This document shows positions 34,201-43,200 of a stretch of 64,000 nt of DNA, piece by piece (positions within the stretch are counted from its first letter, which is position 1; every line of letters starts with the position of its first letter). The position numbers were made by a program. Location: NCBI RefSeq assembly GCF_056712565.1, contig NZ_CM160072.1; one strand, 5' to 3'.

Positions 34201-37200
34201 ATGCCCGGAAGGTGGTGAAATCTAAATCGATGGTGACCGAAGAGATTGGTGTCAATCATGTGTTGCAGGATGCCGGGATTCAGGTGATTGAAACCGATCT
34301 GGGTGAATACATTCTCCAGCTGGATCAAGATCCGCCCTCTCATGTTGTGGTCCCGGCAATTCATAAAGATCGCCATCAGATCCGTCGAGTGCTACACGAA
34401 CATCTGGGCTATGAGGGGCCGGAAACGCCTGAAGCGATGACCTTATTCATTCGGCAAAAAATCCGCGAAGATTTCCTCAGTGCTGAAATAGGTATTACCG
34501 GCTGTAATTTCGCGGTGGCAGAGACCGGTTCGGTATGCCTGGTGACCAATGAAGGTAATGCGCGAATGTGTACCACGCTGCCTAAAACGCATATTGCAGT
34601 GATGGGAATGGAGCGTATTGCTCCCACGTTTGCAGAGGTAGATGTATTGATCACCATGCTGGCGCGCAGTGCCGTTGGTGCACGTTTGACGGGATACAAC
34701 ACCTGGCTGACAGGACCGCGCGAAGCGGGGCACGTTGATGGTCCTGAAGAGTTTCATCTGGTTATTGTCGATAACGGGCGTTCTGAGGTGCTGGCCTCTG
34801 AATTTCGGGATGTGCTGCGCTGTATTCGTTGCGGGGCTTGTATGAATACTTGTCCGGCATATCGCCATATTGGCGGTCATGGATATGGCTCTATTTATCC
34901 AGGGCCAATTGGTGCGGTGATTTCCCCGTTACTTGGCGGCTATAAAGATTTTAAAGATTTACCCTACGCCTGCTCTTTATGCACCGCTTGTGACAGCGTG
35001 TGTCCGGTGCGTATTCCGCTGTCAAAACTGATTTTGCGTCATCGTCGGGTGATGGCTGAAAAAGGGATCACCGCAAAAGCAGAGCAACGGGCGATAAAAA
35101 TGTTCGCTTATGCCAATAGTCATCCAGGATTGTGGAAAGTTGGGATGATGGCTGGTGCTCATGCGGCAAGCTGGTTTATCAATGGCGGCAAAACACCACT
35201 CAAATTTGGCGCGATTAGCGACTGGATGGAAGCACGCGATCTTCCTGAAGCTGACGGAGAGAGTTTCCGTAGTTGGTTTAAGAAACATCAGGCGCAGGAG
35301 AAAAAGAATGGATAATCGGAGCAAATTTTTGAATAACGTTGCTCAGGCACTGGGGCGCCCGCTGCGACTTGAACCGCAAGCAGAAGATGCGCCGCTTAAC
35401 AACTATGCTAACGAGCGGCTTACCCAACTTACCCAACAGCAGCGCTGTGACGCGTTTATCCAGTTTGCCAGCGATGTTATGTTGACGCGCTGTGAACTGA
35501 CCAGCGAGGCGAAGGCGGCAGAAGCTGCAATACGTCTGTGTAAAGAGCTGGGAGATCAGTCGGTCGTGATTAGTGGTGACACGAGGCTGGAGGAATTGGG
35601 GATTAGCGAACGTTTGCAGCAGGAATGCAATGCCGTTGTTTGGGATCCGGCGAAAGGTATTGAGAACATATCACAAGCAGAGCAGGCTAAAGTGGGCGTC
35701 GTATATGCTGAATATGGTTTAACCGAATCGGGAGGCGTGGTTCTTTTTTCCGCCGCCGGGCGCGGGCGTTCATTGAGCCTGCTCCCGGAATCTTCTCTTT
35801 TTATCCTGCGTAAAAGCACAATCCTGCCGCGTGTAGCGCAACTCGCAGAAAAATTGCATCAGAAAGCGCAGGCCGGTGAACGAATGCCGTCATGTATTAA
35901 CATCATCAGTGGTCCCAGTTCAACGGCGGACATTGAGCTTATCAAAGTCGTCGGGGTTCATGGTCCGGTGAAAGCGGTGTATCTGATTATTGAGGATTGC
36001 TGAGAGAGATATGTAGTCTGGACATAAACCTGAAGGCGGTATACGAGGTTGTGAATAGCGTTAAGGACAACCTGACTTAACCCCGTTCCGTCATGGTTAT
36101 GCAGCTCTTCTGTAAATATCCTGACATTAATAATGCCAGGATATTTACAGTTAAAAAGACAGGAATCCATTCCTGAAGACGGGCTCCCTTCCCGGTCACT
36201 GTCACTATAGTTTTATACAGGCACTCTCTGTCAGAATGCTGTTTATTACTGCCCAGAGTTTTGTTGGTATTCATCTACCATTTTTTTGACAAGGCAAAAC
36301 ATCACAGAAATCACAATACTTAGAAAAAATCCCAGAGCCAGGCAAATGGCAGCAGGGTATTTATTTTTTATTTCTGGTGAGCTTATAGTGACACAGCCAT
36401 CACCGTTCGGATACAGTGACCAGTTCCTGGTCAGGTATATCATTTTTGTATAAAGCTCACTGTTAATTGCTGAAGGCGTTTGTATCTCATCGAGAACTTG
36501 CCTGCCATTATGGTATTCTGACGCATACCATTTGATGATAGACGCCTGCACGCGAGATATTTCCGCTTCAGCAGTTGGTAAATCTCTCTTATTTCCTGAC
36601 CATTCCAGCTTTATTTCTCTGTTCTTGACATCTGGGCTGGTCTGAAAAAATGTAGTAATTCGCTGAATAACATCTTCAGTCATTGTGGTCTGACAGGCAA
36701 AGTTATTATTGCTATCACAGCTAACAAGTATGCCTGGTGTTGTCTGGTTTATTTTTAGACTGTAAGTCACTTTTATATTATCTTTATTGATATACAGAAA
36801 CAACAGCACCATTACCATACAGATAGCTATAATAAAAAGGATAACACGAATCTTTTTCTTCAGATAAAATAAAATCTCAATCAGATCGATATCCTGTTTG
36901 ATTTGTTCATTCATAATATATCCAGAAAATGAAATCTGTCGCAGATAAGATTGTATTAATAGTCTGTATCAGGAATGTTCAGGGTAAATATCAGCAAAAA
37001 GCCAGCATCATGAATACTGGATATTTATAGCCTGCAGGCAGCATACTGCTGCCTGCAGGGGGTATAACAGTCGACAGGGGAACCGACTGCTTTATTCTTA
37101 CCAGGTCACATTGATACCAACTACACCCTGTAGCGGGTTCTCAATGTCGTCACCTTTGGTGTAGTCAAGGCTTGCATATGCTCCCATGTTTTTGGTGATA

Positions 37201-40200: not shown

Positions 40201-43200
40201 TTCCCTCACAGATGTCAGTACGCCAGCACGCTGTACAGGCTGTACAGCGTGCCTCCCAATCCTGCAGCCCAGAACAGTAGAAATATTTTGGCTCCTACAC
40301 TGTAGCGAGTCCGTATGCGCCGCAGTGGGTGGTAGTAACAACGCTGCTGTGTCATAACAATCCTGGTCTTTTTTTAGATATATTTTTTCTTTGTCCGGAA
40401 AGTACTTTTCCGGAAATGGCGTCAGAATTTATTGATTCACCAACGGCAACTTTCTCTGGATAAAGGATTCCGGATACCATGTTCTGCACATACTGAGTGA
40501 GTCGATGAGCGGAATGTTGTCCGATATATTTTGCATGTAGCCGTATATTCCGTTTCACTCTGCTGTCACCGCATCCCGTATAGAGCAGCCTGAAATCGCT
40601 CAGTGTTCCCAGTCCAAGTTTCATTAAAGCCCGTGTGGCAATCGCATGCAGGGTCTTTGAACTGCGTTGTTCATAACGGGCAATCTCACTGAAACTCATG
40701 CCCTGCATCAGAATCTTAAGCACGCTCAACTCCCGTGCAGTCAGGAGCCAGAAATCGCTCATATCGCCGGGCAAAGGACGTAGTAACCAGCGGATAATTT
40801 GATTCTGATAACGACTCGCTGTCAGCATGGTGCCGATGCGTGGGAAGCCGTTATACAGACTTGCAGCAGGAGCATTATCGAACCAGTCGGAGTCACCGGT
40901 CAGGCAGACCTGCCATTGCCCGGCATCACTCCGCAAACGGGCGAGACAAGCCAGAAGAACCAACTCCCCCGAAGGAAGCGAAGGGATATCAGCTAACAGG
41001 TAGCCACAGGAGGTCTTTAAAACGAATTCAACCTCTGTAGTGACGTTGCTGTACACCCGCACGATATACCTGTCCGTTGGGATGAGAGACTCCAGTGCCA
41101 GCCTGGTGAACTGACAGGCACTGATAATAACCAGAGGCTTCTTCATTCAGACTCGTCCACGCCATTGCTACAAAACCTGACATTTTGATTCAAAATGTCA
41201 GGTTTGGTTTAATAGCCTGAATATTTAATTTTCTTGGAATATAAATCTGATTTGTTTGATTTTTATTGTTTTTAATTTTGTATTATTTAACAATATGGGC
41301 GAAAGTTAATCACTGGTATGACCTTTGTGATTAATCATTTCAAATCATGGGGTTATTTTACTTTAGCTAGAAATATCAACATGTTATGTGTTTTATTTAA
41401 TTGAATGGGCTGTTTTTTTATGGAAGAATTGAGGAAAACGTAGGAATCTGACATTTTGAATCAGAAGGTACTGTTTTAACGAGGCTTTTTTTTCCACACC
41501 CCTTTAAAACGAGCAGCATTACTGGCTGTGTATCTGACAGTATGCTGAATATTTCGATGACCCAGGTAATCCTGAAGTAGTCGGGTATCGACACCATTGT
41601 CAGCCAGAGCAAAACCACAGGCATGACGTAACATATGAGGATGTGCTTTTACAGCTAATCCTGCACGTTTTCCAGCCTCACGAATGATAGAAAAAAAATG
41701 TTGTCTGCTGATAGGGCGGCGTTTCCGGGAGAGAAAAAGCCAGTCTCCTTCAACTCCGTTTTCAATTAACTTCCTCTGCTTAAGCCACAACTTGATCAAA
41801 TTATATTCATCAGGAAGAAGAGGATGTGTTGTCGAGAAACCATTTTTAATACGCCGAATATTAAGTTGTTTTCCAGATGCATCAATATCGGATAAACGTA
41901 AATCAAGAAGTTCACTGGCCCTAAAACCGTGAATGAAAGCCATCATAATCAGACAGCGATTTCTTTCAGGAAAGGACATGCTCTGGGCTGCATCCATCAG
42001 CCTGTAGACTTCATCCTGTGTGAGATATTTTCTCGTCATACGCCACCGTGTACAGTTGTAAAAAAAAGAGAGGCACACCCAGATAAGTATGCCTGCAATC
42101 AGAACGTTATCGATGTAATCTCATTATCTCATTAATAAGATTTTTTGAATAGTAGTTCTACGCAACAGATTAAATATGAACTATTTATTGTGCAGCTTTT
42201 CTACAAGTCATTTTTAATGCGTGTTTTTATCTACTATAATGTGAAAAAAATAAATATTAAAACTATGAGTGACAGGTCGTGTGGGATGTGTATTACGTCT
42301 AATGCTTTAGTAATTTTTTATTATTTCTGAGATATTTAACATCATTTCCTGTGAGATTGTCTTGTTGTGTATCTAATTGATTTTAATTTTGTTTTTTTTG
42401 ATGCATAAATTTGGATGATAGAAAGTAAGATTAGCTTAATATCAATGATATGAATTTATAAATACATATTGTTGCAAGGTGTTCTTTACTTTTTTGGTCG
42501 TTAGTAAATCATTGTTAATGGGTTCTGTTCATAAATTAAAAATATTCATTTAAATGATTTTTACTTTTTGTATATCTCAATTTGTTTATTTTGCATTCAT
42601 TTGATGGAGAGTATTCCAACACTTTTTATTTTTCGCAAAAAACTTATTAACAACTTTTTATTATCAATTGAAAATTAATGTAAACTAAAATGTTAGCGAA
42701 GCGATAATCTTGTGCTAAAAAATATTTAAGCATGATGATTAATTAAAGAAGAGTAAAAATAAATCGCTGCTAATAAATTATACGAACCGTGTTTAAAGCT
42801 CCATGTGGTTTTGGTCTGACTTATTTTTGTACTCGTTACAAGAACCCTTTTCGTACATGCTAACCGTGAGCGGGAATGAACAGGTAACCATAGCCAGGAA
42901 CATTAGCGGCGTAATTCTTAAGCTGAGTGGTATTTCATCTGTAGTTTATCTGTGTATGCATAGCACCTTCATCAGCCAGATTGAGCAAGTCAGCTTAGAA
43001 TTTGCTGGTGAGATTGTCACGATGAAGCATGAGAGTTACCTCAGTGTTTTATATAAGGATTCGGTCCTCATAGTAGAACGGTAACTCTCAATCTGATAGG
43101 TTCCTGAGTCAGTTCACATCACGACTCATTTTTTTCGCTCTCACCGGCATCCCATTTGCCACAAAATATCTTGCCGTGCTCCTCGGCAACGCATCCTTCC

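What the first reader, a model, noticed from the sequence alone, without database searches (positions are those of the whole stretch)
37031..42080. Adhesin–regulator–recombinase islet inserted between ykgH and betA
As recalled, K-12 has ykgH directly adjacent to betA. Here about 5 kb intervenes, encoding a 766-aa autotransporter adhesin, two tandem LuxR-type regulators and a FimB/FimE-family recombinase, all on the minus strand. Only 41 bp separates regulator 1 from the autotransporter start, which suggests co-transcription. This is a self-contained module with the architecture of a phase-variable adhesin locus. The functions of the two paralogous regulators (activator versus anti-activator, or chaperone-like) are not evident from sequence.
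Basis: partly seen in the sequence, partly recalled or inferred. Interest (0 to 1): 0.6.

Follow-up and report, generated by a model that had tools for sequence, protein, structure and literature searches.

The report
Known E. coli island PAI-X (fimX–hyxRAB)
This is the already described E. coli accessory island PAI-X (also called the UpaB cluster): a small recombinase that flips a promoter-carrying DNA segment, two regulators and the UpaB adhesin.

Summary
The four minus-strand genes exist as described. They lie in a 5,997-bp, 43.1% G+C insertion (window 37025-43021) between ykgH and betA that K-12 lacks.

This is the published island PAI-X, also called the UpaB cluster:
- ipbA (= fimX = hbiF), a Fim-type tyrosine invertase.
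- hyxR (= autA), hyxA (= autR) and hyxB (= upaB, crystal structure 6BEA).

The region is 99.5% identical and colinear with CFT073. About 1,830 of 5,426 complete E. coli genomes carry it.

HyxR/AutA activates the upaB promoter and HyxA/AutR blocks that activation. RT-PCR found no co-transcription across the three gene junctions.

Three points in the finding need correcting:
- The islet is 6.0 kb, not 5 kb.
- The adhesin is 765 aa, not 766.
- The two regulators are not detectably paralogous. HyxA has no Pfam match, although its predicted fold resembles NarL/FixJ-type response regulators.

One side observation may be new. A precise 271-bp loss of hyxS occurs in 69 genomes on two divergent island haplotypes, and it is explained by a palindromic recombination site next to hyxR.

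Verdict: ordinary and already known; low interest.

The parts
37025..43021 (.). Whole islet (PAI-X / UpaB cluster) relative to the K-12 ykgH-betA junction. It is 5,997 bp at 43.1% G+C. The junction has a 2-bp (AT) ambiguity and no flanking direct repeats.
   Evidence: BLASTN of the K-12 segment (L003) against the window; sequences read directly; G+C
37030..37060 (-). Perfect 13-bp stem with a 3-nt loop (CCTGCAGGCAGCA-nnn-TGCTGCCTGCAGG), 38 nt downstream of the hyxB stop and just inside the island edge. The K-12-shared terminator-like hairpin with a T-run follows at 37020-37002. Together these are the probable end of the hyxB transcript (inferred).
   Evidence: Sequence read directly; terminator-like site at 37020..37002
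37098..39395 (-). hyxB = upaB, a type Va autotransporter adhesin of 765 aa.
   Evidence: ORF; PGAP annotation of an identical genome; TIGR01414; PDB 6BEA UpaB at E=7e-282 over residues 26-489
39366..39565 (-). Published upaB promoter probe (-170 to +30 relative to the start codon), bound by AutA and AutR in gel-shift assays. It lies in the 3' end of hyxA plus the 41-nt gap.
   Evidence: PMC4844996, main text and supplement; coordinates derived from the start codon at 39395
39437..40198 (-). hyxA = autR, 253 aa. It has no Pfam or NCBIfam family. Its predicted fold is a receiver-like alpha/beta domain followed by a helical helix-turn-helix domain. It is published as the anti-activator of upaB.
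   Evidence: primers pCold-malE/autR-F and -R map to 40198 and 39440
40352..41146 (-). hyxR = autA, 264 aa, a LuxR/GerE-type regulator whose promoter region is the phase-variable element. It is published as the activator of upaB.
   Evidence: PF00196 at E=3.9e-6; annotation; primers pCold-malE/autA-F and -R map to 41146 and 40355; PMC6083910
41174..41204 (.). hyxR-proximal recombination site. It is a perfect palindrome of two 15-nt arms around one central base (AACCTGACATTTTGA-A-TCAAAATGTCAGGTT). It therefore holds both an inverted copy (41186-41201) and a near-direct copy (41177-41192, one mismatch) of the 16-bp repeat.
   Evidence: the repeat finder pair I4; sequence
41186..41463 (.). hyxS invertible element: perfect 16-bp inverted repeats (TGATTCAAAATGTCAG / CTGACATTTTGAATCA) flanking 246 bp of 26% G+C DNA.
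   Evidence: Among complete genomes, 1,778 have this orientation and 16 match the computed inverted allele (10 over its whole length, 6 over 86%). The 16-bp repeat length agrees with PMC6083910.
41448..41463 (.). Recombinase-proximal 16-bp repeat, 12 nt downstream of the ipbA stop codon. Its outer flank (GTACCTTC) does not match the consensus arm.
   Evidence: the outer flank is conserved in related switches
41476..42039 (-). ipbA = fimX = hbiF, a Fim-type tyrosine DNA invertase of 187 aa.
   Evidence: NF007370 at 251.6 bits (cut-off 221); annotation note 'IpbA is also known as HbiF and FimX'
42040..43021 (.). Island DNA of 30% G+C upstream of ipbA with no convincing gene or known RNA family. 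It is the presumed regulatory leader of ipbA (inferred). A terminator-like hairpin sits at 42094-42071, just upstream of the ipbA start.
   Evidence: Composition; Rfam search negative; terminator-like site; some genomes annotate only a 44-aa hypothetical ORF there

Best explanation
The region is the known E. coli accessory island PAI-X (also called the UpaB cluster, or GI-4 of APEC O1), inserted between ykgH and betA.

Proposed mechanism, with the basis for each step:
1. The small tyrosine invertase IpbA/FimX/HbiF recombines the two 16-bp inverted repeats of hyxS and flips the 246-bp AT-rich segment in front of hyxR. This switches hyxR transcription between high and low states. (Published. Here I show the repeats and natural alleles in both orientations.)
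2. HyxR (= AutA), a LuxR/GerE-type regulator without a partner kinase, activates the separate promoter of upaB/hyxB, which lies in the 3' end of hyxA. HyxA (= AutR) binds the same promoter fragment and cancels that activation. (Published gel shifts and in vitro transcription.)
3. Both regulators also act on distant genes: hmpA, K1 capsule, the acid fitness island and O-antigen chain length. (Published.)
4. UpaB is a surface beta-helix adhesin that binds fibronectin and glycosaminoglycans. (Published structure.)

The window carries hyxS in the orientation of the CFT073 reference genome and of about 94% of the 1,897 genomes with this segment. This is most likely the state the literature calls OFF. 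That assignment is an inference, at roughly 60-65%.
For: - Identity: the region is 100% identical over 6,251 bp to NZ_CP098206.1, which is annotated hyxB, hyxA, hyxR, ipbA. It is 99.49% identical in one colinear piece to CFT073.
- Position: K-12 lacks it.
- Proteins: tyrosine-type DNA invertase above its curated cut-off and the autotransporter barrel; PDB 6BEA UpaB at E=7e-282; GerE domain in HyxR.
- Switch anatomy: perfect 16-bp inverted repeats 246 bp apart.
- Natural inversion: 1,778 genomes match the window orientation and 16 match a computed inverted allele.
- Literature: hyxS/FimX/hyxR (PMC6083910; 10.1101/494401); PAI-X = fimX + hyxRAB with hyxB = upaB (PMC3789825); AutA/AutR regulation of PupaB and island G+C of 43.08% (PMC4844996; I compute 43.1%).
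- All eleven published primer sequences I tested map exactly to the window, which gives AutA = HyxR and AutR = HyxA.
- UpaB binding properties (PMC6488583).
Against: - Nothing contradicts the identity.
- The ON/OFF state of this copy is open. Promoter-like hexamers occur on both strands of hyxS. The primary hyxS paper (Bateman & Seed 2012) was not available. In APEC DE205B, whose primers match this orientation, autA RNA was reported at dnaE-like level, which does not fit a fully silent OFF state.
- The Salmonella T1 paper labels the E. coli genes a 'hyxRAB operon', which disagrees with the negative RT-PCR result.
- The link from hyxS state to UpaB level has not, to my knowledge, been measured directly.
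Confidence: 0.9

Rival explanations
1. Single phase-variable operon. The hyxS promoter drives one hyxR-hyxA-hyxB transcript, so the adhesin itself is directly ON/OFF with the switch.
For: - The gaps are short: 153 nt and 41 nt.
- No terminator-like site is predicted in either gap.
- In the related Salmonella T1 cassette, the switch drives genes located beyond the two small regulator-like genes (PMC11294581). That paper calls the E. coli genes a 'hyxRAB operon'.
Against: - RT-PCR across all three intergenic regions was negative in APEC DE205B.
- A -170 to +400 upaB fragment is transcribed in vitro and is activated by AutA.
- Deletion of autR raised upaB mRNA about 37-fold (PMC4844996).
Confidence: 0.2
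2. The recombinase is a phage-type integrase that serves the mobility of the islet, as annotated in APEC O1 ('putative phage integrase'), rather than a promoter-flipping invertase.
For: The product contains the Phage_integrase catalytic domain. Zhuge et al. used that label together with the low G+C as a hint of horizontal transfer.
Against: - It is only 187 aa, and it matches the XerD and XerC profiles only over their C-terminal catalytic halves (profile positions about 102-290), so it has no counterpart of their N-terminal domain.
- It scores above the cut-off for the Fim-type DNA invertase families.
- There are no direct repeats at the islet ends.
- Its own 16-bp inverted repeats lie immediately downstream.
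- Both orientations are found in nature.
- Published inversion of hyxS and fimS by FimX.
Confidence: 0.03
3. The two regulators are mainly global regulators (nitrosative stress, capsule, acid resistance, O-antigen length). Their position next to the adhesin would then be incidental, so the islet is not functionally an 'adhesin module'.
For: - 223 genes change in the autA and autR mutants; capsule and acid fitness island effects are reported.
- hyxA and hyxR mutants alter O-antigen chain length and serum resistance.
- The same recombinase-switch-regulator cassette sits in front of a polysaccharide locus in Salmonella.
Against: Both proteins bind the upaB promoter directly, and the effect on upaB is strong. 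This view is compatible with the best explanation rather than exclusive of it.
Confidence: 0.3

Closest known systems
PAI-X (fimX-hyxS-hyxR-hyxA-hyxB) of UPEC UTI89/CFT073/EC958, also called the UpaB cluster (APECO1-1681 to -1683 plus upaB) of APEC
   Same: Same chromosomal site, same gene order and strand, 99.5% DNA identity to CFT073, same 16-bp inverted repeats, and the same G+C (43.1% against the published 43.08%).
   Different: Nothing of substance. This copy is simply one allele, identical to dog isolate Z0117EC0054.
fim switch (fimB/fimE-fimS-fimA) of E. coli
   Same: A small Fim-family tyrosine invertase is encoded next to a roughly 300-bp AT-rich invertible promoter segment. FimX also acts on fimS.
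   Different: - The repeats are 16 bp rather than 9 bp, with little sequence similarity.
- There is one linked recombinase rather than two.
- The switch drives a regulator gene rather than the structural adhesin gene.
- The regulator-proximal site is a full palindrome.
ipuS (ipuA/ipuB-ipuS-ipuR-upaE) of CFT073
   Same: A Fim-type invertase, an invertible promoter, a LuxR-type regulator and an autotransporter adhesin in one small island.
   Different: - ipuR and upaE form a two-gene operon driven by the switch.
- The repeats are 7 bp, there are two recombinases, and the chromosomal site is different.
- Here there are two regulators, and a separate upaB promoter is reported.
Salmonella T1-antigen switch (STM0716-STM0718 upstream of STM0719-0726)
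   Same: - STM0716 is reported as 72% identical to FimX.
- The repeats begin with the same TGATTCAAAA.
- A HyxA homologue, STM0718, follows the switch (locus L016).
   Different: - The cargo is a polysaccharide biosynthesis operon driven directly by the switch.
- The gene in the hyxR position encodes only 73 aa in L016.
- The interior of the switch is not significantly similar to hyxS.

Membership tests
PAI-X / UpaB cluster of E. coli | Inserted between ykgH and betA | tested here: met
   K-12 DNA aligns up to 37024 and from 43022. The same flanking genes are annotated in carriers.
PAI-X / UpaB cluster of E. coli | Gene content and order ipbA(fimX)-hyxR-hyxA-hyxB on one strand, with near-identity to the reference strains | tested here: met
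   100% identical to NZ_CP098206.1; 99.49% identical and colinear with CFT073.
PAI-X / UpaB cluster of E. coli | hyxS element with 16-bp inverted repeats between fimX and hyxR | tested here: met
   Perfect 16-bp repeats at 41186-41201 and 41448-41463. The published repeat length is 16 bp.
PAI-X / UpaB cluster of E. coli | hyxS is actually inverted, by FimX | tested here: inconclusive
   Both orientations exist among complete genomes (1,778 against 16), which shows inversion in nature. Catalysis by this FimX copy cannot be tested here.
Fim-type tyrosine DNA invertases (FimB/FimE/FimX/IpuA/IpuB) | Profile match above the curated cut-off; short protein consisting of the catalytic domain only | tested here: met
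   NF007370 at 251.6 bits (cut-off 221) and NF007371 at 233.2 bits (cut-off 222); 187 aa.
Fim-type tyrosine DNA invertases (FimB/FimE/FimX/IpuA/IpuB) | Catalytic R-H-R-Y residues | tested here: met
   By inspection of the translation: GFRASE, HPHMLRHACG and TVRYT motifs are present. No structural check was done.
Type Va autotransporter adhesin UpaB | C-terminal 12-strand barrel domain and an N-terminal beta-helix passenger identical to the crystallised protein | tested here: met
   TIGR01414 at E=2.6e-69 over residues 366-765; 6BEA at E=7e-282 over residues 26-489.
LuxR/GerE-type HTH regulators | GerE (PF00196) domain, tested in HyxR | tested here: met
   E=3.9e-6 over residues 135-181.
LuxR/GerE-type HTH regulators | GerE (PF00196) domain, tested in HyxA | tested here: not met
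   No Pfam hit even at E<=10 for HyxA or for eight homologues. No NCBIfam hit. hhalign against the HyxR family gave probability 0.3%.
LuxR/GerE-type HTH regulators | Receiver-like domain plus C-terminal helical DNA-binding domain at fold level, tested in HyxA | tested here: met
   AlphaFold2 model: mean pLDDT 77, and 91-97 over residues 131-200. The 35 best Foldseek PDB hits (E<=1e-3) are full-length response regulators, nearly all NarL/FixJ-type (FixJ, RcsB, VraR, LiaR, DesR), aligned over about 200-225 columns. Global TM-scores are low (0.3-0.5), so this is a fold resemblance and not proof of homology.
Phosphorylated two-component response regulators | Acidic pocket with a phospho-acceptor Asp, and a partner kinase | tested here: not met
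   By inspection, HyxA has FCPSG after strand 1 and VISAGRP at strand 3, with no Asp. HyxR lacks the acidic pair after strand 1. No kinase gene is in the islet.
Single operon under the switch (as in ipuS or Salmonella T1) | One transcript from the switch through the adhesin gene | not testable with these tools
   No terminator is predicted in the gaps, but published RT-PCR was negative.

The most novel reading that the evidence does not exclude
hyxS can be excised as well as inverted. The hyxR-proximal site is a perfect 15+1+15 palindrome, so it offers the recombinase a near-direct repeat as well as the inverted one. The 7-bp centre is TGAATCA at this site and TGATTCA at the other, differing only at the middle base. 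Sixty-nine complete genomes carry a precise 271-bp loss of the switch with the junction ACCTTCTGA-A-TCAAAATGTCAGG. These fall on at least two island haplotypes that differ at 202 of 3,196 sites, and one of them is only 31-35 differences from intact alleles. This points to recurrent site-specific excision. It creates permanently locked alleles without a switch, in which hyxR sits 58 bp behind ipbA. I could not find this described, but the primary PAI-X papers were not available to me.
Probability: 0.4. Interest if true: 0.35.

Novelty: already known. Interest (0 to 1): 0.12.

Why it matters
For the scan, this is a correct call on a locus that is already in the literature. PAI-X is a marker of extraintestinal pathogenic E. 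coli. It links phase variation by FimX to a regulator pair that controls the UpaB adhesin, capsule, acid resistance, nitrosative stress tolerance and O-antigen length. Nothing in this copy departs from the reference strains.

Two things here may add to what is published:
- The population-level picture of the switch across 5,426 complete genomes: about 94% of the 1,897 carriers of this segment in one orientation, 0.8% inverted and 3.6% precisely deleted.
- The fold-level assignment of HyxA, which has no family in Pfam or NCBIfam, to the receiver-plus-HTH architecture.

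Tried and rejected
1. My first guess from memory was the ipuS/ipuR/upaE locus of CFT073. I rejected it because annotation and identity show the hyx locus instead.
2. I tested paralogy of the two regulators by BLASTP and by profile-profile comparison of family alignments. There was no signal in either.
3. Pfam on HyxA alone and on nine family members gave nothing.
4. I tried to assign ON/OFF by homology to the experimentally defined Salmonella T1 switch. The interior alignment scored 14.0 colinear against 8.5 inverted, with shuffles at 3.3 +/- 5.4. 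That is not significant, so I abandoned the approach.
5. I tried to assign ON/OFF from promoter consensus. Comparable weak sites occur on both strands, so the result is inconclusive.
6. The primary hyxS paper (Bateman & Seed 2012; PMC3809820, PMID 22221182) is not held in the library.
7. An Rfam scan of the islet found only two sub-threshold chance hits on the hairpin at 37031-37059.
8. I looked for target-site duplications or att-like repeats at the islet ends. There are none, only a 2-bp ambiguity.

Full report
**What is in the sequence.** Window 37031-42080 holds four minus-strand ORFs.
- An autotransporter at 37098-39395. It is 765 aa from the ATG that RefSeq uses and that a published lacZ fusion uses.
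- A 253-aa protein at 39437-40198.
- A 264-aa protein at 40352-41146.
- A 187-aa recombinase at 41476-42039.

**Boundaries.** A K-12 segment (TG1 F', ykgH and betA 212 bp apart) aligns to the window up to 37024 and resumes at 43022. The inserted DNA is therefore 37025-43021, or 5,997 bp at 43.1% G+C. The junction has only a 2-bp ambiguity and no flanking direct repeats. That stretch contains no Rfam family and no convincing ORF.

**Identity.** A megablast search against 5,426 complete E. coli genomes gave three results.
- 1,830 genomes hold at least 80% of the stretch. Most of the others match only its two ends (ykgH and betA), as K-12 does.
- CFT073 is 99.49% identical in a single colinear piece.

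The protein tests agree.
- The recombinase passes the curated cut-offs of both Fim-type 'tyrosine-type DNA invertase' families.
- The autotransporter has the TIGR01414 barrel, and its passenger matches the crystallised UpaB (6BEA, E=7e-282).
- The 264-aa protein has a GerE/LuxR helix-turn-helix domain (E=3.9e-6).

Between the recombinase stop codon and hyxR lies a perfect 16-bp inverted repeat, at 41186-41201 and 41448-41463, enclosing 246 bp of 26% G+C DNA. This is hyxS, the invertible element described next to fimX with 16-bp repeats. FimX inverts it, and it controls hyxR (PMC6083910; 10.1101/494401).

I checked that it inverts in nature.
- A 751-bp query across the element matches 1,778 genomes over at least 80% of its length, that is, in the window's orientation.
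- A synthetic allele with 41186-41463 reverse-complemented matches 16 genomes in one piece, 10 over its whole length and 6 over 86%.

**How it works, from the literature.**
- PAI-X is defined as fimX plus hyxRAB, and hyxB is the same gene as upaB. hyxA and hyxR mutants change O-antigen chain length and serum resistance (PMC3789825).
- Zhuge et al. (PMC4844996) describe the same islet as the 'UpaB cluster', inserted between betA and ykgH at 43.08% G+C.
- Their RT-PCR detected no transcript across any of the three intergenic regions.
- AutA activates the upaB promoter and AutR suppresses that activation. This rests on deletions, a lacZ fusion, gel shifts and in vitro transcription.
- Both proteins affect about 220 genes, including K1 capsule genes and the acid fitness island.
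- Their primers map exactly onto the window. AutA is HyxR (41146 to 40355) and AutR is HyxA (40198 to 39440). The promoter probe (-170 to +30) corresponds to 39565-39366.
- UpaB binds fibronectin and glycosaminoglycans (PMC6488583).

The proposed RT-PCR has been done, with a negative result.

**Are the two regulators paralogous LuxR proteins?** Sequence does not show it.
- BLASTP between them gives E=0.29.
- HyxA has no Pfam hit even at E<=10, and neither do its homologues. It has no NCBIfam hit.
- A profile-profile comparison of a nine-member HyxA alignment with an eight-member HyxR alignment gives probability 0.3%.

HyxA does have a small family, with members at 31-54% identity. The family shares a conserved C-terminal block (ER.PK..K.VL.LLL.G.S.E..AR.LGTGVRQVWLAEQ.LK.RW.IP).

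An AlphaFold2 model built on that alignment has mean pLDDT 77, and 91-97 over residues 131-200. It shows a five-strand alternating beta/alpha domain followed by a helical bundle. Foldseek against the PDB returns almost only full-length NarL/FixJ-type response regulators at the top (FixJ, RcsB, VraR, LiaR, DesR; E down to 6e-6, about 200-225 aligned columns).

So 'two LuxR-type regulators' is supported at fold level for HyxA, as Zhuge et al. also proposed from Phyre2 modelling. Common ancestry with HyxR is not demonstrated. By inspection neither protein has a complete phospho-acceptor pocket, and the islet encodes no kinase.

**State of the switch in this window.** It is in the orientation of the CFT073 reference and of about 94% of the 1,897 genomes that match the 751-bp query.
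- Battaglioli et al. report hyxS 'locked OFF' in all their recombinase-deleted CFT073 derivatives.
- Sequencing detected hyxS inversion only when FimX was overexpressed.

On that basis I infer that this is the state called OFF, at roughly 60-65%. Sequence alone does not settle it. Weak sigma-70-like sites occur on both strands of the element. Homology to the Salmonella T1 switch, where the OFF state predominates, is too weak in the interior to transfer the assignment. The reported dnaE-like autA RNA level in an APEC strain also sits uneasily with a silent state.

**Side observation, possibly new.** The hyxR-proximal site is a perfect palindrome, with 15-nt arms at 41174-41188 and 41190-41204 around base 41189. 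It therefore contains both an inverted and a near-direct copy of the repeat.

Some genomes lack exactly 271 bp, with the junction ...ACCTTCTGA-A-TCAAAATGTCAGGTTTTG.... This is the product expected from recombination between the recombinase-proximal site and the direct half of the palindrome. A 48-nt junction probe, designed so that intact and inverted alleles share no 28-mer with it, finds 69 genomes.

The seven deletion alleles I fetched fall into two haplotypes.
- The two haplotypes differ at 202 of 3,196 ungapped sites.
- One haplotype is only 31-35 differences from intact alleles.

The event has therefore happened at least twice. In these alleles hyxR starts 58 bp after the ipbA stop codon. 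Slippage on the 12-bp direct repeat would give the same junction, so recombinase involvement is inferred and not shown.

**Relatives.**
- HyxA homologue P0038 lies in what is evidently the Salmonella T1-antigen locus (L016). The order there is recombinase, a 16-bp inverted repeat pair beginning with the same TGATTCAAAA, a 73-aa gene, the HyxA homologue, and then glf, glycosyltransferase and ABC-transporter genes (PMC11294581).
- A second metagenomic relative (L017) has a recombinase, a switch with a palindromic distal site, a 252-aa protein, a HyxA homologue at 54% identity, and a large downstream gene.

The recombinase-switch-regulator cassette is thus a portable module that carries different cargo in different hosts. 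This has already been noted in print.

**Verdict.** The locus is already known, so interest is low.

Noticed in passing
window 41174-41204 and 41448-41463; L002 1698-1755; L004-L009: A precise 271-bp deletion of the hyxS switch occurs in 69 of 5,426 complete genomes, many of them avian isolates. The junction is the one expected from recombination with the direct half of the palindromic hyxR-proximal site. It occurs on two island haplotypes that differ by about 6%.
   Followed up: partly
window 37002-37060: The islet is inserted immediately next to the hairpin-plus-T-run that follows betA in K-12. In carriers, betA is therefore separated from that terminator by 6 kb, and hyxB inherits it. The islet brings its own perfect 13-bp hairpin at 37030-37060.
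   Followed up: no
window 42061-42094: A terminator-like hairpin followed by CTCTTTTTTT lies about 20 nt upstream of the ipbA start codon on the coding strand. It may insulate ipbA from betA read-through, or it may act as a leader element.
   Followed up: no
window 42040-43021: Nearly 1 kb of 24-31% G+C island DNA lies upstream of ipbA with no gene. Haplotypes differ strongly here (88% identity against about 99% on the hyxR side). Some RefSeq records annotate a 44-aa hypothetical ORF or a frameshifted one.
   Followed up: no
hits H13, H14 and L014 (O157:H7 and O145 genomes): In EHEC O157:H7 and O145 the hyxB gene is annotated as separate 'adhesin' and 'autotransporter beta-barrel' pieces. Island coverage drops to 83%, and ipbA is shorter in O145.
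   Followed up: no
hits H91-H96: Six genomes, mostly from dogs, carry hyxS in the inverted orientation together with a divergent or truncated recombinase gene annotated only as 'DNA recombinase'. This may be a naturally locked inverted state.
   Followed up: no
hit H84 (NZ_LR890410.1): One genome with the inverted hyxS allele carries an IS26 insertion in the ipbA-hyxS-hyxR stretch.
   Followed up: no
L017 287-4251: A metagenomic contig (SRR19479291) carries a diverged copy of the cassette: a 174-aa recombinase, 24-nt inverted repeats with a palindromic distal site, a 252-aa protein, a HyxA homologue at 54% identity and a large downstream gene. The host organism was not determined.
   Followed up: partly
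L010 3316-3456; L012 1666-1806: In the roughly 94.8%-identity island haplotype, PGAP annotates an extra 46-aa hypothetical protein in the hyxR-hyxA gap, overlapping the hyxR stop codon.
   Followed up: no
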